From assembly GCA_964521325.1 (NCBI GenBank), contig CAZFRL010000004.1, positions 1-51,293 on the forward strand: a stretch of DNA of 51,293 nt, read 5' to 3'. The notes beneath the pieces were generated by a model, which saw only the letters and a list, made by a program, of their open reading frames with translations, was not told the DNA's origin and did not search any database. The translations under genes were made by a program, and so were the position numbers. The stretch is from an uncultured Dehalococcoidales bacterium (lineage in GTDB: Bacteria; Chloroflexota; Dehalococcoidia; Dehalococcoidales; CAZFRL01). Position 1 is the first letter of the stretch. Every line of letters begins with the position of its first letter. This document shows positions 14,801 to 22,272 of the stretch, in pieces.

Positions 14801-15638
14801 CACTGGTAGCAAATCTGCCTCCATCTAGTTGAACCAAAGGTCGAAGGTCAGGGGGTAAGACAGGTAACACGGTTAAAATCATCCACTCTGGTTTATTGCC
14901 ACTGCGGCGGAGGGACTCCACTAGGCGTAGCTGCTTGCTTGCCTTCTTGCGGCGTTGACCTGAAGTAGATTGGATTTCCTGGAGCAGGCTGCTACGTATT
15001 TCATCAAGGTTAATGTCCTTGAGAATTTGTAGAATAGCCTCAGCTCCTATCCCTGCCTCGAAAACTTGACCATATTTCTGTTTGAGCTCATGATATTGAT
15101 TCTCGGTGAGTAGGTCCCCCATTCTGAGGTCTTTTAGTTGTTCCATTTCAATGGCAAGCTCTTCCTCAGGTTGTGTCTCTTCCTCAGGCTGTTTAATTGC
15201 TTCTTGTCGTGCCTCTTCGTTAATAGCGGTGATGATATAATGGGAGAAGTATAGAACACGCTCCAGACTTCGCGGTGACAGGTCGAGCAATAATCCCAAT
15301 CGGCTTGGTATCCCCTTAGCAAACCAGATATGACTCACCGGGCACGCTAGCTCAATATGTCCCATACGTTCTCGACGTACTTTAGCCCGGGCTACCTCAA
15401 CGCCACACTTATCGCAAATAATTCCTTTGTAGCGTATCCCTTTATACTTACCACAGTAACATTCAAAATCTTTAGTCGGACCAAAGATTCTCTCACAGAA
15501 AAGCCCATCCCTTTCTGGCTTCAGGGTACGGTAGTTGATAGTCTCTGGCTTGGTTACCTCACCGTAGGACCAGCTCCTGATCTGCTCCGGTGAAGCTAGG
15601 GAGATACGGACAGCATCAAAATCATTAACTTCCAGCAT
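11856..15638 (-). CDS. rpoC: RNA polymerase beta' subunit
   Basis: Zn-ribbon [21 protein letters not shown], catalytic NADFDGDQM; ATG 15638 with GAGGAGG SD. Confidence 0.99.
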
Positions 15639-18600
15639 TTTCCTCCTCAACCTCATTAAGTGCTTTCGTGGTTTCCTCAGCGAAGGCTGCCTTTTCCTCT
15701 CCTTCGTTAATCACCTCAATAGCAAGCCCTAAACTTTGCAGTTCTTTAACTAGAACCTTAAACGATTCAGGCACGCCAGGTTGGAGAATATCCTCATTCT
15801 TAACTATAGCCTCATAGGTTTTGTCTCGACCGGACACATCATCTGACTTGATAGTCAGAACTTCCTGAAGGTTATGGGCAGCGCCATAGGCTTCTAGTGC
15901 CCATACCTCCATCTCACCAAAGCGTTGACCTCCGAATTGGGCCTTACCGCCTAGGGGTTGTTGAGTAATCAAAGAGTAGGGCCCAATAGAGCGGGCATGA
16001 ACCTTATCCTCAACCAGGTGGATTAGTTTCATCATATAGATATTCCCCACTGTTACCGGCTGGTCAAAAGGCTCACCGCTGCGTCCATCGCGGAGTATAA
16101 CCTTGCCATTTACAGGTGGAGCAAGCTTCCTTTCACTACTTACCCTTTCCACTGCTTGCCGCAGTGCCTGTAAGTCAAGGTCTCGGCTAGCTATACCTAA
16201 TTCTTCAAGCCAAAGGCGCAAGCAAACCTCTCTCGCTTCTCCCGAGTAGTCGTCACTGAATACTCTGTCTCCGTCGTAGCCATTACTTTTAAGCCACGCC
16301 TTAGCTAGTTCCAATTGCACCGTGGCATTCTCGTTACTAGGGCCAGAGTCAACCGCCCCAGCTTTCTGAGCTAGCCAAGCCCTAGCCAGGGCATCCTCAA
16401 TATCAGTATCATCGGCACCATCAAAAACCGGGGTGAGTACCTTGAAGCCCAGTATCTGGGCAGCCCAGCCAAGGTGAGTTTCCAGCACCTGACCGATATT
16501 CATACGTGATGGGACACCTATAGGGTTGAGGATTATGTCTACCGGTGTGCCATCGGGGAGGAAAGGCATGTCCTCAACGGGGGCAATACGGGCGATCACA
16601 CCCTTATTACCATGCCGCCCGGATAGCTTATCCCCTACGGAAATTCTTCGTTTCTGGGCAATCCAAACCTGCACTCGTTTTTCAACTCCAGCCGGTAGGT
16701 CATCACCAGTGAAGTCTCTAACATTAATCACTTTACCCCACTCGCCGTGAGGCACTCGTAGCGAGGTATCCTTTACCTCACGGGCTTTCTCACCAAAGAT
16801 AGCCCGCAAAAGTTTCTCTTCAGCCGATAGCTCGGTCTCTCCCTTGGGGGTAATCTTACCTACTAGTATGTCACCTGGGCCTACTTTGGCACCAACCCGA
16901 ATAATGCCAGTTTCATCAAGGTCACGTAGGCTTTCCTCACCCACATTAGGTATATCTCTGGTGATTTCTTCGGGTCCTAACTTGGTATCCCGAGCCTCTA
17001 CCTCATACTTCTCAATATGAATAGAAGTAAATTTATCCCGTTCAACTAGGCGATTGCTGATGATGATAGCATCCTCAAAGTTATAACCTTCCCAGCTCAT
17101 AAAGGCACACAGCACATTCTGTCCCAGAGCCAGTTCCCCCTGTTCAGTAGATGAGCTATCAGCCAGAACTTGCCCCTTTTCTACTCGGTCGCCTTTACTT
17201 ACTATGGGGTTTTGGTTAAGGCAAGTACCCTGATTAGTGCGGACAAATTTCATTAGCGGGTATAATTTCTTATCACCGCTATCTTCGGTAACCTCTATCT
17301 GTGAGCTGGTAACTGAGGCTACCACCCCGGCATTCTGGGCATAGAGTACCTGCCCACTGTGCTTAGCCGCTTCCATTTCCATACCGGTGGCTACCAAGGG
17401 TGCCGTAGGGGAAAGCAACGGTACCGCTTGCCGCTGCATATTTGCTCCCATCAGAGCACGATTTGCATCATCGTGTTCTAGGAAGGGTATTAGTGCCGTG
17501 GCAACACTGACCATCTGCTTGGGTGATACATCCATAAAATCAATTTTATCGGGTGTCTCCAGTAAGTAGCGGTCACCATGCCTGGCTTCAACCTTCTCTG
17601 CCACAAATTGGCTATTTTGATTAAGCCGGGCATTAGCCTGGGCAATAGTATATTTATCCTCTTTGTCGGCTGAAAGGTAAACGACCTCATCAGAGACGAA
17701 GGGTGCTACCTTTATACTTCTAGGGGATAGGCGAGATAGCTTGGTAGCCAGCTGGGGGGTAATGGTAGTCCCAGCTTTTACTACAGTATTGCCCTTGTTA
17801 TTAACCACTGCCTCCGTGGTTGTCTTACCCAGCAAATTGTCATAAGTATTGCTTACCTCAGTTATAACCCTGCGGTATGGTGTCTCAATAAAGCCATATT
17901 GGTTAATCTGGCTGTAGGTGGCTAAAGAGCCAATAAGACCAATGTTAGGTCCCTCTGGTGTCTCAATGGGGCAAATTCTACCATAGTGAGAGAAGTGGAC
18001 ATCGCGGACATCAAAGCCAGCACGCTCACGAGATAAACCTCCTGGTCCCATTGCTGATAGGCGGCGCTTATGCGTCAGCTCAGCCAATGGGTTCGTTTGG
18101 TCCATAAATTGTGATAGCTGCGAACCATTGAAGAACTCTCTGACCGCGGCTGCTATGGGGCGAATATTAATCAGAGCACTAGGAGTAACTGCTTCCGTGC
18201 TAATAATGCTCATACGTTCCCTGACTGCTCTCTCTAGGCGCAATAGCCCGATACGAAACTGGTTCTGGACCAACTCGGCAACTGTACGCACTCGCCGATT
18301 CCCTAGGTGGTCAACATCGTCTGGGGTATCCTCACCATTATTAACCATGAAGATATGCCTGATTATCTCTATGATGTCTTCCTCGTCTAGAGCTGGGTTT
18401 CTTTTTGAATCATCAAGCCCTAATCGTTTATTAAGCTTATATCGACCTACATTCCCAAGGTCGTAACGCTGAGGATCAAAGAGCAGGTTCTTGGTTAGTT
18501 TTCTGGCATTTTCAATATTAGGTCGGTCCCCAGGGCGCAATTTCTTATAGATATCAATTAGAGCATCGGATTCATTTCTAATTAAGGGCTCGCGTTGCAT

Positions 18601-19293
18601 AGTTAACTTCATAAATTGATGCTCTGAAGAACTGTCCTCTTGGGGAAACAGGTTAAAAAGTTGCTCATCACTACTGTAACCAATAGCCCGTAGCAACGTA
18701 GTAACTGGAATCTTGCGTTTACCGTCAATTTTGACTGAAATTACATCCCGATTGCTGGTCTCAAACTCTAGCCAGGCCCCTCGGGTAGGGATTAATTTAG
18801 CCTGACACAATTCACGACCGGTAGTGGCATCTTCTTCAATGGTGAAATAGATACCTGGGGAGCGGAGTAACTGGCTTACCACTACCCGTTCAGCACCATT
18901 AGTAATAAAGGTCCCTTTAGCTATTATCAGGGGAATATCACCGAAGAATAGGTCTTGTTCTTTGATTTCACCTGTTTCCTTAACTAGTAATCGTGCTTTA
19001 ACATAGAGGGAGCTTGAGTAAGTCAGGTCACGCTGGCGGCATTCTTGCTCAGGATGAGGCTTACGGAACTCGTAGTTTATGAAGTTAAGCTCCAGTCTAT
19101 TGCCGGTTAAATCTTTAATAGGAGATGCCTCCTCCAGCAGTTGCTTTAGTCCCTTTTCTTGAAACCAGCGGAATGAGTCTAATTGAACTTTATTCAGATT
19201 GGGTACTTCCAGTATCTGGGGTAGTCTAGCGTAGGATTTTCTAGGGCAGGGAAACGTCTCTTTTTCAATGCGGGTTGGTGACATAAAAACCAT
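15625..19293 (-). CDS. rpoB: RNA polymerase beta subunit
   Basis: [52 protein letters not shown]; AGGAG SD. Confidence 0.99.
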
Positions 19294-19415
19294 TCTACTC
19301 CTTAAACAGACATGCAGAAATTTTGTATTAGTGTAGTACTATTCTGGAATAATACCTGTGGCTAGAGAAGGAATATAATAAGGTGAAACCTTTAGTAGCA
19401 TAACTATAAGTACTA

Positions 19416-19444
19416 ATACTACTACGATTTTTGATATTTGTCAA
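19416..19444 (-). promoter_or_regulatory. rpoBC promoter
   Basis: TTGACA-17 nt-TAGTAT on the minus strand, ~120 nt upstream of rpoB. Confidence 0.6.
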
Positions 19445-19456
19445 GCCCCATTCAAT

Positions 19457-19585
19457 TCAGGAAGCAAGAAGTCTGGTAACTGTGCCCTTAGCAGTATTGG
19501 TCATTCTACAAGTAGCACGAATGGAATTACCTTCGCATAAAACCTTGATAACTTGTGTTTGTCGTTCTATACTTAGCTCATTCAT
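19457..19585 (-). pseudogene. IS1-family-type transposase N-terminal fragment (42 aa, not in ORF track)
   Basis: MNELSIERQTQVIKVLCEGNSIRATCRMTNTAKGTVTRLLAS*: HTH with the EGNSIRATxRMT signature typical of IS1-like transposase N-termini; no DDE domain follows. Confidence 0.75.
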
Positions 19586-19608
19586 AATTTTTTAACCTAT
19601 TTGACTAT

Positions 19609-19637
19609 ATTATAGCATAACGCTCAAGCATTGTCAA
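19609..19637 (-). promoter_or_regulatory. Consensus sigma70 promoter of transposase remnant
   Basis: TTGACA-ATGCTTGAGCGTTATGC(17)-TATAAT. Confidence 0.75.
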
Positions 19638-19710
19638 GAGAAATATAAGAAAAAACTTATATTATTATACCACAAAATTATACTTGACAATATAAGAAAA
19701 AACTGATATT

Positions 19711-20094
19711 ATGGGTATTGAGTTCACTTTTTACGACTATATTGATGAAACTGGAAATAACATCATAAAGAATTGGCTTAATAGTGAAGCGAAGGATGCA
19801 AAGGCACTTTTTAACCAAGTCATACCTCACCTAGAAGCTACTCCGCCACCCTGGAGCACAAAATACGTTATACGTATGAAATATGATTGGAAAGGATTTA
19901 TTGAATTACGTAAAACTGGGAAGATACAATATAGACTGCTTGGTCAAATACGAAACCGAGATGTTTATTTAGTAGCGTTTGGCTTTCATAAGGGGAAATA
20001 TACAACAGATGTAGCACCTGAAATAGCAGCAGTGAGAGTATCACAAATGATAGCCAACCCCGCGAAGTACAGGAGGAAGCATGAATACAACTAA
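19711..20094 (+). CDS. RelE/HigB-like (Gp49-type) toxin
   Basis: FYDYIDETGNNIIKNWL N-terminus; GFIELR...QYRLLG...LVAFGFHK; directly upstream of an HTH gene (HigBA order). Confidence 0.7.
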   Translation: MGIEFTFYDYIDETGNNIIKNWLNSEAKDAKALFNQVIPHLEATPPPWSTKYVIRMKYDWKGFIELRKTGKIQYRLLGQIRNRDVYLVAFGFHKGKYTTDVAPEIAAVRVSQMIANPAKYRRKHEYN

Positions 20095-20593
20095 CGAGTA
20101 CAAGCAAATGTGGGAAAGCCTACAAGACCCTGATTACCGTAAACAGCTTATTGATGAACATATTAATGTTGGTATTGCTTTTCAAATTCACGGTCTTAGA
20201 AAACGACAGGGACTGAAACAGAAGCAGTTAGCTGAAAAATTAGGAGAAAAGAAACAGCCCTTAATTTCTTCGTGGGAAAATCCGAACTATGGCAAATACA
20301 CGCTAGGAACTTTGAAAGATTTGGCAAAGGCTTTTGATGTGGGTTTATTAGTTCGCTTTGTGCCATTCAGCACATTGGTTGATTGGACAATTAACCTAAC
20401 TCCTGATGTTATTGCACCTCCTAGTTTCAGCGAAGAACAAAAACGCATCGCAATGTGGGATTGGGTGGCTTCTATCCCACTGAAAGACACAAGGGATATG
20501 GATGCATACGACTTATCAAATCGTATGCCAGTCCCAGTCCCACGCATTCCATCCACATCAAGGATTGGAGAGGAGGCCTTAGCAAATGCGTGA
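20081..20593 (+). CDS. XRE/HigA-like HTH antitoxin with C-terminal extension
   Basis: IHGLRKRQGLKQKQLAEKLG..QPLISSWENPNYGKYTLGTLKDLAKAFDV; ~55-aa tail after FVPFS...F. Confidence 0.8.
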   Translation: MNTTNEYKQMWESLQDPDYRKQLIDEHINVGIAFQIHGLRKRQGLKQKQLAEKLGEKKQPLISSWENPNYGKYTLGTLKDLAKAFDVGLLVRFVPFSTLVDWTINLTPDVIAPPSFSEEQKRIAMWDWVASIPLKDTRDMDAYDLSNRMPVPVPRIPSTSRIGEEALANA

Positions 20594-21014
20594 AGAATTT
20601 AGGGAACGACTTGCAAAGGAATATCGCTATGCTGTAACAAAGATGCAAGAGGCAACGCAGCTATCTCAAAAGCTGTTCTATTTCAGTGTCTTTTTTGGAG
20701 AGGCGCAGCGTGTGCTCAATTGGGAATGGGACACTGACCTTGTGCTCATACACATACTTACCATGCACGTCCATACACAAACCAATGCCGCAGTACAAAT
20801 GCCAAGAATTGGACAAACAATACCTCTCGATTGGACAACCTTTTCTGATAAGCTGACCCAAGTTGCCTCTGACCTTGCCACCTACTTTGAGAAGGCAGAA
20901 GATGGGGATAGTAAAGAAGAACTATACAAAATATTAGGGTGCTTTGCTGAAATTGCCTATGCTGTTTCAGGGAATGGCAGTTATTTGTTGGAGAAAGGAA
21001 CCTTTAAGCTTTAG
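20586..21014 (+). CDS. Hypothetical, predicted all-alpha protein (third gene of TA operon)
   Basis: 142-aa ORF overlapping the antitoxin stop, GAGG SD; no family recognised. Confidence 0.65.
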   Translation: MREEFRERLAKEYRYAVTKMQEATQLSQKLFYFSVFFGEAQRVLNWEWDTDLVLIHILTMHVHTQTNAAVQMPRIGQTIPLDWTTFSDKLTQVASDLATYFEKAEDGDSKEELYKILGCFAEIAYAVSGNGSYLLEKGTFKL

Positions 21015-21234
21015 TATTCCAACGTGTTTGGGCTGCTTTTTTAGCAATCTCACTTCGTTTTCTAGGTGTTAATTTTTCAGCTCTAGCCTTGCCACCCTTT
21101 AATCCACCTTTACGCCCTAAAGCTGCATAGTCAATATCTGGTTTAGGTTCTTTTTCAGTTTGTCCGGTTGCTTCTTGGACTACACGAAAAGCGGTAACGG
21201 CGAAGTCATGTTCCTTTTTCTTACGCTTTGCCAT
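21004..21234 (-). CDS. Small basic KGG-motif protein
   Basis: AALGRKGGLKGGKARAEKLTPRKRSEIAKKAAQTRW; a type often seen beside IS1-like transposases. Confidence 0.75.
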   Translation of the reverse strand: MAKRKKKEHDFAVTAFRVVQEATGQTEKEPKPDIDYAALGRKGGLKGGKARAEKLTPRKRSEIAKKAAQTRWNTKA

Positions 21235-21240
21235 ACTTAA

Positions 21241-21269
21241 ATAGTAAGCTAACGCTCAAGCATTGTCAA
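21241..21269 (-). promoter_or_regulatory. Promoter for KGG gene (probably leaderless)
   Basis: TTGACA-ATGCTTGAGCGTTAGCT(17)-TACTAT, then 6 nt to the ATG, with no SD. Confidence 0.65.
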
Positions 21270-21277
21270 CGCTCAAG

Positions 21278-21322
21278 CATTTCAAAATGATACACTACCC
21301 CATTTCAAATTGACCCACTACC
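21278..21322. repeat. Two tandem IS terminal-repeat copies
   Basis: CATTTCAAAATGATACACTACC (21278-21299) and CATTTCAAATTGACCCACTACC (21301-21322); reverse complements begin GGTAGTG. Confidence 0.65.
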
Positions 21323-21331
21323 TGTTTTTGT

Positions 21332-21361
21332 TTGACAAAGTCTGTTCCTGCTGGGTATAAT
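21332..21361 (+). promoter_or_regulatory. sigma70 promoter for PAS-STAS/CoA-transferase operon
   Basis: TTGACA-18 nt-TATAAT. Confidence 0.6.
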
Positions 21362-21444
21362 TAATACTTGGTTACTCCAGCTTAACCTCTAGAACAAATC
21401 ATAAGGTTCAACCCACTCTAACAGGAACCAAAGGAAGGATAATT

Positions 21445-22272
21445 ATGGAAAAACAATTATCACCACAGAGGAGTAGAGGGGGCTATTTGGAGGCTTTACT
21501 CAATAGCTGTCCTGATGCTATCTTGGCTATTGATGGCGAGGGGACAATAACATTTGCCAACAAAGCGGCCTGCGAGCTTGTAGAATGTGTGATGCAAGAG
21601 CTTATAGGCTCAAGCATCGTCACCGTTTACGAAAGCCTGGAAGCCGCCAAAGAAACAAATCGTAAGCTCCATATGAGTGGCGGGCTAGTCCATGACCATG
21701 AATCTAAAGTCAAGACAAGGGCCGGAAAGCTAGTTCCGGTACGCATTTCGGCAGCCCATATGAGAGATAGCTCAGGTAACTACATAGGAGCTGTAGGTTT
21801 CTTTGAGAAATACCGACCTTGGAGTGGGGCAGAGGCAGAGGTTAAGGCATACGCCGAGGAACTGGAGGCCAAGCTTGAGGAATGGAAGGACCTCGGTGCT
21901 CCCGTGTTTCAGCTTTATCCCGGACTTTCAGCAGTGGTGGTAGTAGGGCGTCTTGATATTGACCGTTTTATGCGTGTCACCAGCAGTCTGTTGAGTCATG
22001 TGGAGAGTATGAGGTCTAGAGTCGTTCTCGTCGACCTGTCTGCGGCACTGGTGGAAGATGCTACCACCATAGCCAGCGAATTATTAAAGACGATACGTAC
22101 TATCCAATTGTTGGGTGCGCAGTGTGTCCTTGCCGGCATTCAATCATCCTTAGCTCAGGCGATAGAACCGTTGGTACCAGATGTCGACTCAGTCAAGTCC
22201 TTTTGTTGCACAGCTGTTGGTATAGAGGCGGCGCTTAATATCATCGGTTTTGAGATTCACAAAAAAGATTGA
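21445..22272 (+). CDS. PAS + STAS domain protein (RsbR-like architecture)
   Basis: PAS: DAILAIDGEGTITFANKAACEL...ELIG, GKLVPVRIS, GNYIGAVG; STAS: PVFQLYPGLSAVVVVGRLD, VLVDLS, LLGAQCVLAGIQ. Confidence 0.82.
   Translation: MEKQLSPQRSRGGYLEALLNSCPDAILAIDGEGTITFANKAACELVECVMQELIGSSIVTVYESLEAAKETNRKLHMSGGLVHDHESKVKTRAGKLVPVRISAAHMRDSSGNYIGAVGFFEKYRPWSGAEAEVKAYAEELEAKLEEWKDLGAPVFQLYPGLSAVVVVGRLDIDRFMRVTSSLLSHVESMRSRVVLVDLSAALVEDATTIASELLKTIRTIQLLGAQCVLAGIQSSLAQAIEPLVPDVDSVKSFCCTAVGIEAALNIIGFEIHKKD

What the first reader, a model, noticed from the sequence alone, without database searches (positions are those of the whole stretch)
19457..21322. IS1-like element with cargo bracketed by 20-bp direct repeats that are also promoters
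Seen: TAACGCTCAAGCATTGTCAA occurs exactly at 19618-19637 and 21250-21269, and a third partial copy (21268-21281) is fused to the terminal repeat. Each full copy forms the -35 and spacer of a leftward promoter, one for the transposase and one for the KGG gene. Deleting everything between the two copies would regenerate a simple end-promoter-transposase IS. Inference: cargo is captured or exchanged as a cassette between duplicated end/operator sites, and one element-encoded protein (the transposase HTH, as InsA does in IS1) may repress both promoters.
Basis: partly seen in the sequence, partly recalled or inferred. Interest (0 to 1): 0.7.

Follow-up and report, generated by a model that had tools for sequence, protein, structure and literature searches.

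The report
Broken cargo-carrying IS1-like transposon relic
This stretch is the immobilised left part of a cargo-carrying jumping gene from a very large, apparently undescribed branch of the IS1 family; the repeated 20-mer is that family's shared promoter/control sequence, placed in front of both of the element's own genes.

Summary
TAACGCTCAAGCATTGTCAA occurs exactly twice (0 expected by chance). On the minus strand each copy supplies the -35 hexamer and spacer of a sigma-70-type promoter, one for a 42-codon transposase stub and one for the 76-aa KGG gene.

About 170 relatives fetched here define the family: 21-bp inverted repeats (GGTAGTG...), 8-bp target duplications (22 of 23 complete copies), and the order IRL, KGG gene, variable cargo slot, single-ORF IS1-like transposase, IRR.

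The conserved unit is a 17-mer, TTGACAATGCTTGAGCG. Family-wide it is half of a 20-bp palindrome lying between -35 and -10, which probably acts as an operator. Both promoters carry it as an ancestral feature.

Cargo differs widely (86 protein clusters, mostly toxin-antitoxin or defence-like). The slot runs from the KGG 3' end to the first base of the transposase-promoter 17-mer. It does not run between the two repeats, and KGG stays with the backbone.

The window copy is defective: the transposase is truncated and there is no right end. Its cargo is a HigB-fold toxin, an XRE antitoxin and a third unknown gene.

I found no evidence that the repeats are recombination sites.

The parts
21302..21322 (-). 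Outer terminal inverted repeat, GGTAGTGGGTCAATTTGAAAT ('GGGTCA' type). It is specific to this locus and is probably the tip of an older family member into which the present element inserted.
   Evidence: IR scan, 1 mismatch to the family consensus. Community contigs that share the inner repeat stop at 21299/21300, so this outer copy lies outside the mobile unit. The same tandem arrangement is seen only in other assemblies of this same locus, L222 and L242.
21279..21299 (-). Inner terminal inverted repeat (IRL), GGTAGTGTATCATTTTGAAAT. This is the true left end of the element.
   Evidence: 0 mismatches to the 'GTATCA'-type consensus. Depth rises 4- to 9-fold over 21253-21299, and many contigs with unrelated flanks end at 21299/21300. 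In relatives, 8-bp target duplications abut exactly this end.
21270..21281 (-). Partial third copy (minus strand AATGCTTGAGCG) fused to the inner end of the IRL. It forms a 17-bp-spaced direct repeat with the full module.
   Evidence: The same 12 nt lie between IRL and the 17-mer in 96 of 119 metagenome loci and in L072, L080, L094 and L104. It is therefore ancestral in this subfamily, not a local accident.
21241..21269 (-). KGG promoter: -35 TTGACA (21269-21264), 17-nt spacer, -10 TACTAT (21246-21241). It contains 20-mer copy 2 (21250-21269). The ATG lies 6 nt after the -10, so the mRNA is probably leaderless.
   Evidence: The 6-nt spacing between -10 and ATG is conserved in relatives.
21004..21234 (-). 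KGG gene: a 76-aa basic protein (...GRKGGLKGGKARAEKLTP..EIAKKAAQ.RW). It is the conserved accessory gene of the family and is intact here.
   Evidence: It lies on the same strand upstream of the transposase in about 42 of 46 genome loci and follows the IRL in 107 of 119 metagenome loci. At least 3680 90%-identity clusters and 10,220 50%-identity representatives match it, with no Pfam domain and no PDB match. The structure model is three helices at low confidence.
20586..21014 (+). Cargo gene 3 (142 aa), function unknown. It is always linked to the two genes before it. Its 3' end overlaps the KGG 3' end by 11 nt, convergently.
   Evidence: No hit in Pfam, NCBIfam, PADLOC, PHROGs or PDB. It is conserved at 52-70% identity in L089, L117, L123-L129, L203 and L245.
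20081..20593 (+). Cargo gene 2 (170 aa): an XRE-family HTH protein with a C-terminal extension, probably the antitoxin and repressor of the cargo operon.
   Evidence: Pfam HTH_3 at 3.6e-9; PHROG transcriptional regulators. It overlaps gene 1 by 14 nt and gene 3 by 8 nt.
19711..20094 (+). Cargo gene 1 (127 aa): a RelE/HigB-fold protein, probably an mRNA-interferase toxin, placed upstream of the antitoxin (HigBA gene order).
   Evidence: AlphaFold model with pLDDT 89.5 and pTM 0.84. Best Foldseek matches are the S. pneumoniae TA-module chain 6af4_A (TM 0.63/0.67, prob 1.00), M. tuberculosis HigB1, YoeB, RelE and YafQ; all E-values are above 0.001, the best 4.7e-3. No sequence-profile hit.
19642..19712 (+). 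Cargo promoter region: a 24-nt direct repeat AATATAAGAAAAAACTKATATTAT (19642-19665 and 19689-19712), each copy holding the dyad ATAAG-N6-CTTAT. The promoter TTGACA-17-TATTAT lies at 19684-19712.
   Evidence: The same duplication is present in L124.
19609..19637 (-). Transposase promoter: -35 TTGACA (19637-19632), 17-nt spacer, -10 TATAAT (19614-19609). It contains 20-mer copy 1 (19618-19637). The first base of the 17-mer (19637) is the right border of the cargo slot.
   Evidence: Family consensus is cTTGACAATGCTTGAGCGgTcAaGtATAaT. Community contigs share only 19597-19640. Homology between relatives resumes 0-4 nt before the 17-mer in 63 of 130 pairs.
19457..19585 (-). Transposase stub: 42 codons of the N-terminal HTH, then a stop. 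Weak homology continues to about 19421. The DDE domain and IRR are missing.
   Evidence: 65-83% identical to the N-termini of about 278-aa IS1-like transposases. tblastn with the L089 transposase aligns residues 6-64 only. No IRR is found at up to 6 mismatches. The truncation point differs from that in L126.

Best explanation
Positions 19457-21322 hold a defective copy of a transporter insertion sequence (an IS that carries passenger genes) from a distant, single-ORF branch of the IS1 family.

Shown by comparison with relatives: the intact element is IRL (GGTAGTG..., 21 bp), KGG promoter, KGG gene, variable cargo slot, transposase promoter, HTH-DDE transposase of about 278 aa, an optional second slot, then IRR. 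The whole unit of 2.0-4.9 kb transposes and makes 8-bp target duplications.

Shown in the window: only the left part survives. It has the inner IRL, an intact KGG gene, an intact three-gene cargo (HigB-fold toxin, XRE antitoxin, unknown third gene), the transposase promoter and 42 codons of transposase. There is no DDE domain and no IRR, so this copy cannot move by itself. The outer IRL is the stump of an older copy.

Shown: the 20-mer is the family's conserved 17-nt module TTGACAATGCTTGAGCG (-35 hexamer plus ATGCTTGAGCG) plus 3 further matching bases. It stands at both promoters in many relatives.

Inferred: across the wider family this module is the left half of a 20-bp palindrome (ATGCTTGAGCG/GTCAAGTAT) filling the promoter spacer and -10. 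That is the arrangement of an operator for a dimeric repressor. An element-encoded protein therefore most likely shuts off KGG and transposase together. The candidates are the transposase HTH (as InsA does in IS1) or the KGG protein; which one is open.

Shown: cargo varies between the KGG 3' end and the first base of the transposase-promoter 17-mer.

Inferred: cargo turnover comes from recombination between family members (nested insertions near ends followed by homologous or illegitimate recombination), with selection keeping KGG and the promoter intact. The toxin-antitoxin cargo probably explains why this relic persists after the transposase decayed.
For: Exact repeat and promoters.

Family architecture: about 46 genome loci and 119 metagenome loci.

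Transposition as a unit: perfect 8-bp duplications abut the IRs in 19 of 20 complete copies, plus 3 more found by a TSD-guided search.

IS1 affinity of the transposase: Pfam DDE_Tnp_IS1 at 26-27 bits (GA 24.1) and NCBIfam IS1 as best hit at 1e-15.

Operator-like module: promoter positions not fixed by my search pattern are still 80-98% conserved among transposases only 50-77% identical, and the family consensus forms an 8-bp-arm dyad with z about -3. An operator-like core with at most 3 mismatches lies at the KGG promoter or KGG start in 22 of 44 loci, against 3.4% of background windows. Such sites occur only near the two promoters.

Cargo: 86 clusters, including ImmA/IrrE-HTH, P63C, STAND/AAA ATPases and MTase-Mrr. 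Slot borders.

Defective state of the window copy. True end at 21299.

Same cargo trio at successive stages of IS decay: L089, L124, L203 and L245 complete; L123 with a frameshifted transposase; L126 with transposase and KGG remnants; L128 with neither. Toxin fold.
Against: No expression or binding data exist: no RNA run holds the stretch.

In the window's own subfamily the right half of the palindrome is degenerate, and neither window copy forms a dyad. If the site is an operator here, it works through half-sites or direct repeats.

The NCBIfam IS1 score (58 bits) is below the curated cut-off of 100, so family membership is distant.

The sharp right border of the slot at the 17-mer, and deletion derivatives ending right after GAGCG (L117, L148, L215), could mean the site also takes part in recombination. 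My explanation does not require this.

The X4 contig joining 19648 to 21303 is unexplained.
Confidence: 0.75

Rival explanations
1. The two copies of the 20-mer are recombination sites, integron-like or resolution-like. Everything between them is captured, exchanged or deleted as a cassette through these sites.
For: Cargo in the slot is hypervariable. The right border of the variable segment falls 0-4 nt from the start of the transposase-promoter 17-mer in 63 of 130 pairs. Three deletion derivatives end immediately after ...GCTTGAGCG (L117, L148, L215). The subfamily carries a tandem partial duplication of the module next to the IRL.
Against: The left border of swapped segments is the KGG 3' end, not the 17-mer at the KGG promoter, and KGG remains 80-88% identical when cargo is unrelated. 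No operator-like site lies at the KGG-cargo boundary. The deletion product (IRL-promoter-transposase) is absent from 119 metagenome loci and about 46 genome loci. No 1632-bp deletion joint appears in the contigs of four runs. The backbone encodes no recombinase. In L215 the junction shows microhomology with the transposase gene, which fits ordinary illegitimate recombination. My search pattern required an intact 17-mer, which biases toward seeing breaks just after it.
Confidence: 0.13
2. The 17-mer/palindrome is mainly an internal transposase-binding site derived from an ancestral left end (a pseudo-IRL). It lets the transposase use the promoter-transposase-IRR segment as an alternative minimal transposable unit. 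This unit lands downstream of IRL-KGG stumps and so creates new cargo combinations. Repression is a by-product.
For: In the subfamily the IRL continues directly into AATGCTTGAGCG, so the 17-mer looks like the inner part of an extended IRL. The right half of the family palindrome plus the -10 (GGTCAAGTATAAT) resembles the inner IR (GGTCAGTTTGAAAT); I compared these by eye. The slot border sits exactly at the 17-mer start. Tandem or nested ends occur (window, L142, L146, L165, L215). An X4 contig has IRL, 11 nt, then the transposase promoter.
Against: The internal site lacks the terminal GGTAGTG needed for cleavage. All 22 target duplications pair a true IRL with the IRR. No locus shows a duplication flanking a promoter-to-IRR unit. 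The change of IR type (GGGTCA to GTATCA) is not mirrored cleanly in the operator half-site.
Confidence: 0.08
3. The repeat has no function of its own. It is a recent local duplication or gene conversion in this one copy, or simply two strong promoters that happen to be alike.
For: Identity in the window extends 3 nt beyond the family 17-mer. A permutation test found no significant within-element similarity beyond the 17-mer (p about 0.1).
Against: The same 17-mer, or its operator-like core, stands at both promoters in relatives from several phyla whose transposases are only 50-77% identical. Promoter function does not require conserved spacer bases, yet they are conserved.
Confidence: 0.03

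Closest known systems
IS1 family insertion sequences (IS1 of E. coli; single-ORF and ISMhu11-type subgroups as listed in ISfinder, recalled from memory and not checked here)
   Same: The transposase has an N-terminal HTH and a DDE domain, and its best profile hits are IS1. The ends start GGnnnTG (GGTAGTG). Target duplications are 8 bp. A promoter and control site is associated with the left end. In IS1, InsA (the HTH part) binds the IRs and represses transcription; that is established knowledge and was not tested here.
   Different: The transposase is a single ORF with no insA/insB' frameshift. No N-terminal CxxC zinc-finger motif is visible. The NCBIfam score is below the family cut-off. An extra conserved gene (KGG) and a cargo slot separate the IRL from the transposase promoter. 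The control sequence is a palindrome in the promoter spacer and is present twice. I found no paper describing this KGG-bearing group.
Transporter IS (tIS): IS derivatives with passenger genes inside the IRs (concept summarised in PMC9330008)
   Same: Passenger genes lie between the IRs and move with the element, and target duplications lie outside the whole unit.
   Different: Here there is a fixed accessory gene plus a defined hypervariable slot with sharp borders. The cargo is dominated by toxin-antitoxin and defence-like modules rather than a single fixed passenger.
Tn3-family transposons carrying toxin-antitoxin passengers next to the res-site promoters (mentioned in PMC9330008, its reference 152)
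   Same: A TA module sits beside the transposition-gene promoter region of a transposon, and it plausibly stabilises the element or its host replicon.
   Different: The transposase family and mechanism differ, and there is no resolvase or res site. Here the TA has its own promoter and operator and is divergent from the transposase promoter.
HigBA type II toxin-antitoxin systems, and the tripartite HigB1-HigA1-SecB-like (TAC) system of M. tuberculosis
   Same: The toxin has a RelE/HigB fold and lies upstream of an XRE-HTH antitoxin with overlapping ORFs. A third co-transcribed gene is present. HigB1 of M. tuberculosis is among the best structural matches.
   Different: No sequence-level match to HigB/Gp49 profiles. 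The third gene shows no SecB or other profile hit. Toxicity is untested.

Membership tests
IS1 family (transposase) | DDE transposase with an IS1-type catalytic domain | tested here: met
   This applies to full-length relatives only. L089 and L124 hit Pfam DDE_Tnp_IS1 at 26.3 and 27.2 bits against GA 24.1. NCBIfam transpos_IS1 is the best hit (E 1e-15) but at 58 bits is below the cut-off of 100. Membership is therefore distant. The window copy itself has no DDE domain.
IS1 family (transposase) | The window's 42-aa ORF is homologous to the IS1-type N-terminal HTH | tested here: met
   It is 65-83% identical to the N-termini of the about 278-aa relatives. Its direct profile hits are weak: NCBIfam IS1 E 0.015 and HTH_7 7.5e-4. 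HTH_Tnp_IS1 scores 19.2 bits, below 24.9, in L089.
IS1 family | Terminal inverted repeats starting GGnnnTG (definition recalled from ISfinder) | tested here: met
   GGTAGTG... is present at both ends of 20 or more relatives and at 21299 and 21322 in the window.
IS1 family | Target-site duplication of 8-9 bp | tested here: met
   Perfect 8-bp duplications occur in 19 of 20 complete relatives, plus 3 more found by a TSD-guided search. This cannot be tested for the window copy because its right end is missing.
IS1 family (classical IS1) | Two ORFs (insA, insB') joined by a programmed -1 frameshift | tested here: not met
   The HTH and DDE parts are in one frame in nearly all relatives. L001 and L123 have frameshifts that look like decay. 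This is consistent with the single-ORF subgroups of IS1, not with classical IS1.
IS1 family (classical IS1) | N-terminal zinc-finger (CxxC) motif before the HTH | tested here: not met
   I inspected the L089 transposase and the window stub. No paired CxxC motifs precede the HTH.
Transporter IS (tIS) | Passenger genes lie inside the IRs and are mobilised with the element | tested here: met
   Target duplications flank units of 2.0-4.9 kb that include KGG and the cargo.
Integron / gene-cassette systems | Site-specific recombinase, and a recombination site at each cassette boundary | tested here: not met
   The backbone has no recombinase gene. No operator-like or other conserved site lies at the KGG-cargo boundary. 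Cargo proteins are unrelated and include no integrase in the sample scanned.
IS1 InsA-type autoregulation | An element-encoded HTH protein binds a site overlapping the transposase promoter and represses it | not testable with these tools
   Only the cis element is seen: a conserved palindrome in the promoter spacer and -10, present near both promoters. Binding and repression need EMSA or reporter assays.
Type II toxin-antitoxin, HigBA type | RelE/HigB-fold toxin encoded upstream of, and overlapping, an HTH-XRE antitoxin | tested here: met
   The best Foldseek matches are TA toxins (6af4_A TM 0.63/0.67, HigB1, YoeB, RelE; all E above 0.001) on a model with pLDDT 89.5. HTH_3 scores 3.6e-9. The ORFs overlap by 14 nt. 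Toxicity and neutralisation were not tested.
Tripartite toxin-antitoxin-chaperone (TAC) | The third gene encodes a SecB-like chaperone | tested here: inconclusive
   The 142-aa protein has no hit in Pfam, NCBIfam, PADLOC, PHROGs or PDB sequence searches.

The most novel reading that the evidence does not exclude
The conserved 17-mer/palindrome has two functions. It is the operator that co-represses KGG and transposase. It is also the site at which an element-encoded protein (transposase or KGG) promotes modular cargo exchange. On this reading, a very large and unannotated IS1-related family (10,220 KGG clusters at 50% identity, across many uncultivated phyla) would be an integron-like acquisition platform for toxin-antitoxin and defence genes built into a transposon.
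Probability: 0.12. Interest if true: 0.85.

Novelty: new variant of a known kind. Interest (0 to 1): 0.55.

Why it matters
IS1 is a textbook minimal insertion sequence. These data show a very abundant relative with three additions: a conserved small basic accessory protein with no known domain, a pair of promoters sharing one operator-like module, and a sharply bounded slot that holds dozens of unrelated toxin-antitoxin and defence-like modules.

KGG homologues number at least 3680 clusters at 90% identity and 10,220 at 50%, almost all unannotated. They come from Dehalococcoidia, Nitrospirota, Acidobacteriota, candidate phyla and others.

This gives a simple, testable system for two questions: how a small transposon regulates itself, and how it acquires and trades cargo in uncultivated bacteria. 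It also explains many orphan 'hypothetical' KGG genes and short broken contigs in sediment metagenomes.

For the window itself the practical point is annotation. It holds an immobile relic whose toxin-antitoxin cargo and strong outward promoter sit just upstream of rpoB.

Tried and rejected
**No data found**
- RNA evidence for the promoters: no RNA run holds the stretch.
- Rfam: no RNA family in 19000-21600.

**No annotation obtained**
- KGG has no PDB sequence match and only a low-confidence three-helix model, so I did not run a fold search on it.
- The 127-aa and 142-aa cargo proteins have no hit in Pfam, NCBIfam, PADLOC or PHROGs. Only the fold search identified the 127-aa protein.

**Tests with negative results**
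- Concerted evolution or gene conversion between the two promoters of one element is not significant beyond the 17-mer (13 elements, p about 0.1).
- Co-variation between IR type (GGGTCA or GTATCA) and the operator right half: I considered this as a way to assign the binding protein. The changes do not correspond cleanly, so I dropped it.
- KGG-less elements could have discriminated between KGG and the transposase as repressor. Only 4 loci with enough upstream sequence lack KGG, and none is a demonstrably complete element.
- Site-specific cleavage at the operator centre, suggested by L117, L148 and L215: this is weakened by microhomology in L215 and by the bias of my search pattern.
- Deletion between the two 20-mers: not seen in the contigs of runs X1-X4. 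Contigs drop rare variants, so this is weak evidence.

**Literature**
- Searches for ISMhu11, IS1 passenger genes and tIS found no description of this group.
Full report
**1. Observation**

TAACGCTCAAGCATTGTCAA occurs exactly at 19618-19637 and 21250-21269. There is no further match at up to 3 mismatches, and 100 dinucleotide-preserving shuffles gave none. A partial copy at 21267-21286 and two tandem 22-nt repeats at 21278-21299 and 21301-21322 are also real.

On the minus strand, copy 1 is the -35 and spacer of TTGACA-17-TATAAT (12/12) in front of the 42-aa ORF at 19585-19457. Copy 2 is the -35 and spacer of TTGACA-17-TACTAT (10/12), which ends 6 nt before the ATG of the 76-aa KGG ORF at 21234-21004.

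The stretch has 31-43% GC against 47-50% in the flanks. It lies between rpoB (15625-19293, minus strand) and a PAS-STAS gene (21445-22272, plus strand).

**2. What the 42-aa ORF is**

A word-indexed protein search found only short fragments. Their contigs were informative: L001 carries the same N-terminus followed by a DDE domain.

I then scanned the genome collection with TTGACANTGCTTGAGCG and obtained 119 loci. About 280 matches would be expected by chance in that collection (my own estimate). Even so, about 46 of the loci carry a homologue of the 42-aa sequence directly downstream of the motif, continuing into a DDE domain 50-77% identical to that of L001. These loci come from Dehalococcoidia, Nitrospirota, Acidobacteriota, Levybacteria, Scalindua, Gemmatimonadota and Verrucomicrobiota.

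The full-length proteins (about 278 aa, one ORF) hit Pfam DDE_Tnp_IS1 just above threshold. NCBIfam IS1 is their best hit, though below its curated cut-off. The stub is therefore a genuine transposase N-terminus from a distant branch of IS1.

**3. Family architecture**

A KGG homologue lies upstream on the same strand in about 42 of the 46 loci, at distances from 100 bp to 3.5 kb. A 21-bp inverted repeat, GGTAGTGGGTCAGTTTGAAAT or the variant GGTAGTGTATCATTTTGAAAT, lies about 60 nt upstream of KGG and again downstream of the transposase.

In 19 of 20 complete copies, perfect 8-bp direct repeats abut the two IRs. A TSD-guided search added three more. The whole unit of 2.0-4.9 kb therefore transposes as one piece: IRL, KGG, slot, transposase, sometimes a second slot, IRR. 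Ends of the form GGnnnTG and 8-9-bp duplications are IS1 hallmarks; I state that from memory of ISfinder.

**4. State of the window copy**

The window has no IRR at up to 6 mismatches. Transposase homology ends between 19457 and about 19421. KGG and the three cargo ORFs have full length compared with their homologues. This copy is an immobile relic.

In salt-marsh metagenomes that hold this locus, many other contigs share 21253-21299 and stop at 21299/21300 with unrelated flanks. The inner repeat is therefore the real element end. The outer repeat (21302-21322, of the other IR type) belongs to the insertion site and is probably the tip of an older copy. L222 and L242 are the same locus from other assemblies.

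Tandem or nested ends of the two IR types also occur in L142, L146, L165 and L215. In L146 and L165 the target duplication pairs the outermost ends. Family members therefore do insert into each other's termini.

**5. What the 20-mer is**

In 46 transposase promoters the consensus is cTTGACAATGCTTGAGCGgTcAaGtATAaT. My search pattern fixed the first 17 bases, so their conservation is partly by construction. The next 12 bases were not fixed, yet they are 80-98% conserved. They complete a dyad, ATGCTTGAGCG/GTCAAGTAT, which is a perfect palindrome ATGCTTGAGCGCTCAAGCAT in several loci. The dyad has 8-bp arms and z about -3.

Promoter activity does not need a conserved spacer. A palindrome filling the spacer and -10 is the classical layout of an operator.

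The region upstream of KGG, or the KGG start itself, carries the core GCTTGAsCGsTCAAG with at most 3 mismatches in 22 of 44 loci, against 3.4% of background windows. Within complete elements, such sites occur only near the two promoters.

A metagenome scan for IRL, up to 30 nt, then the 17-mer returned 119 loci. Of these, 107 continue into KGG, none is a simple IRL-promoter-transposase IS, and 96 have the same 12-nt partial copy between IRL and 17-mer as the window. The exact 17-mer stands at both promoters in 11 of about 42 elements in which both are visible.

So the duplicated module, including the third partial copy, is ancestral in the family and is not a feature of this one copy. Identity in the window runs 3 nt further than the family unit. 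A permutation test gave no sign of within-element homogenisation (p about 0.1).

In the window's subfamily the right half of the dyad is degenerate. Control there, if any, would work through the conserved half-site, which is present as a 17-bp-spaced direct repeat at the left end and once at the transposase promoter.

**6. Cargo and its borders**

Slot ORFs from about 80 elements fall into 86 clusters. The proteins I scanned include HTH plus ImmA/IrrE peptidase (17 loci), P63C-domain proteins, STAND and AAA ATPases, an N6/N4 methylase fused to an Mrr nuclease, HARE-HTH and others.

Pairs of elements whose backbones are 85-91% identical can hold unrelated cargo. In these pairs, homology stops near the KGG 3' end and resumes at the 17-mer of the transposase promoter. 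Over 130 pairs, homology resumes 0-4 nt before the 17-mer in 63. Conversely, elements with the same cargo align end to end at only 64-79% identity.

The element is therefore modular, with frequent replacement of the segment between KGG and the transposase promoter. KGG stays with the backbone, so the two repeats are not the two borders of the exchanged unit.

**7. The window's cargo**

The 127-aa protein gave a confident model (pLDDT 89.5). Its best structural matches are RelE/HigB-superfamily toxins. It overlaps a 170-aa XRE-HTH protein, which in turn overlaps a 142-aa protein with no detectable relatives of known function.

The cargo promoter region contains a duplicated 24-mer with an internal dyad. 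I read it as the antitoxin's operator; that is inference.

This trio recurs with the IS in every state of preservation: complete elements (L089, L124, L203, L245), a frameshifted transposase (L123), transposase and KGG remnants (L126/L127), and the bare trio (L128/L129). This fits an addiction module that outlives its vehicle.

**8. Mechanism, with its status**

Shown: the identity of the parts, mobility of intact relatives as a unit, conservation and placement of the module, cargo variability and the slot borders, and the defective state of this copy.

Inferred: the module is an operator through which one element-encoded protein represses both genes. IS1 InsA is the precedent for the transposase HTH. 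KGG is the only other universal protein, is small and basic, and could be the functional analogue of InsA.

Also inferred: cargo turnover arises from nested insertion and recombination between family members, filtered by selection.

Not supported: cassette exchange through the two repeats.

**9. Comparison and novelty**

This is a transporter IS of the IS1 family in the broad sense. I could not find a description of a KGG-bearing, dual-operator, variable-slot group in the searchable literature. ISfinder itself could not be consulted.

KGG homologues are extremely numerous and unannotated: at least 3680 clusters at 90% identity and 10,220 representatives at 50% identity, 1,506 of them with E at or below 1e-10.

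I rate it a new variant of a known kind. It is of moderate to good interest at family level. The window copy itself is a decayed example.

Noticed in passing
window 19294-19637 (minus strand): The consensus transposase promoter (TTGACA-17-TATAAT, extended -10) now points at rpoB, 316 nt downstream, with only the 42-codon stub between and no terminator-like site on that strand. A second promoter-like site (TTGACA-17-TAGTAT, 19444-19416) sits at the truncation junction. The relic may contribute to rpoBC transcription.
   Followed up: partly
window 21332-21361 (plus strand): A 12/12 consensus promoter (TTGACA-18-TATAAT) for the PAS-STAS gene starts 10 nt outside the outer terminal repeat.
   Followed up: no
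run X4, joint 19648 to 21303: One contig (depth 10.9, higher than this locus has in that run) joins 20 nt of the outer-type IRL to 11 nt plus the transposase promoter. It may be a simple KGG-less family member or a deletion form. Its sequence could not be retrieved.
   Followed up: partly
L001 211-230; also L036, L069, L078, L079, L097 at the KGG start: In the subgroup whose KGG protein starts MPKRSS, the coding sequence ATGCCTAAGCGGTCAAG itself matches the operator (ATGCTTGAGCGGTCAAG) with 2 mismatches. The operator-like site therefore overlaps the start codon.
   Followed up: partly
L080 349-1461, L111 1634-2719 (cargo proteins): The C-terminal KGG motif (GGKAR..L(S/T)..ER..IA..AA..RW) recurs at the N-terminus of P63C-domain cargo proteins. 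KGG residues 42-74 also match the start of PHROG 2384. It appears to be a portable module of unknown function.
   Followed up: no
relatives, promoter regions: In most family members the -10 hexamer of both promoters ends 6-7 nt before the ATG and there is no Shine-Dalgarno sequence. Both KGG and the transposase are probably translated from leaderless mRNAs. In the window's subfamily the transposase instead has a leader of about 25 nt.
   Followed up: no
L008, L030, L050, L052, L053, L061, L089, L106, L108, L114, L124: A second cargo slot lies between the transposase stop and the IRR (0.4-1.7 kb). Examples are a D12-type methylase plus a putative restriction enzyme in L050 and a dCTP-deaminase-like gene in L124. 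L098 and L165/L169 have extra DNA between the IRL and KGG.
   Followed up: partly
L215 45-110; L148 315-360; L117 about 240-257: Three deletion derivatives end immediately after ...GCTTGAGCG. In L215 the junction shows microhomology with the ERQNLTMRM-coding part of the transposase gene.
   Followed up: partly
L001 1726-1800: A tRNA-Asp gene lies 12 nt after the transposase stop, and no IRR was detected there. The contig may be truncated or rearranged at the right end.
   Followed up: no
L056 3460-6835: A 3.5-kb cargo consists of a 753-aa protein with a subtilisin-like GTSxAxP motif (no Pfam hit) next to a classical AAA ATPase. It may be a defence-type pair.
   Followed up: no
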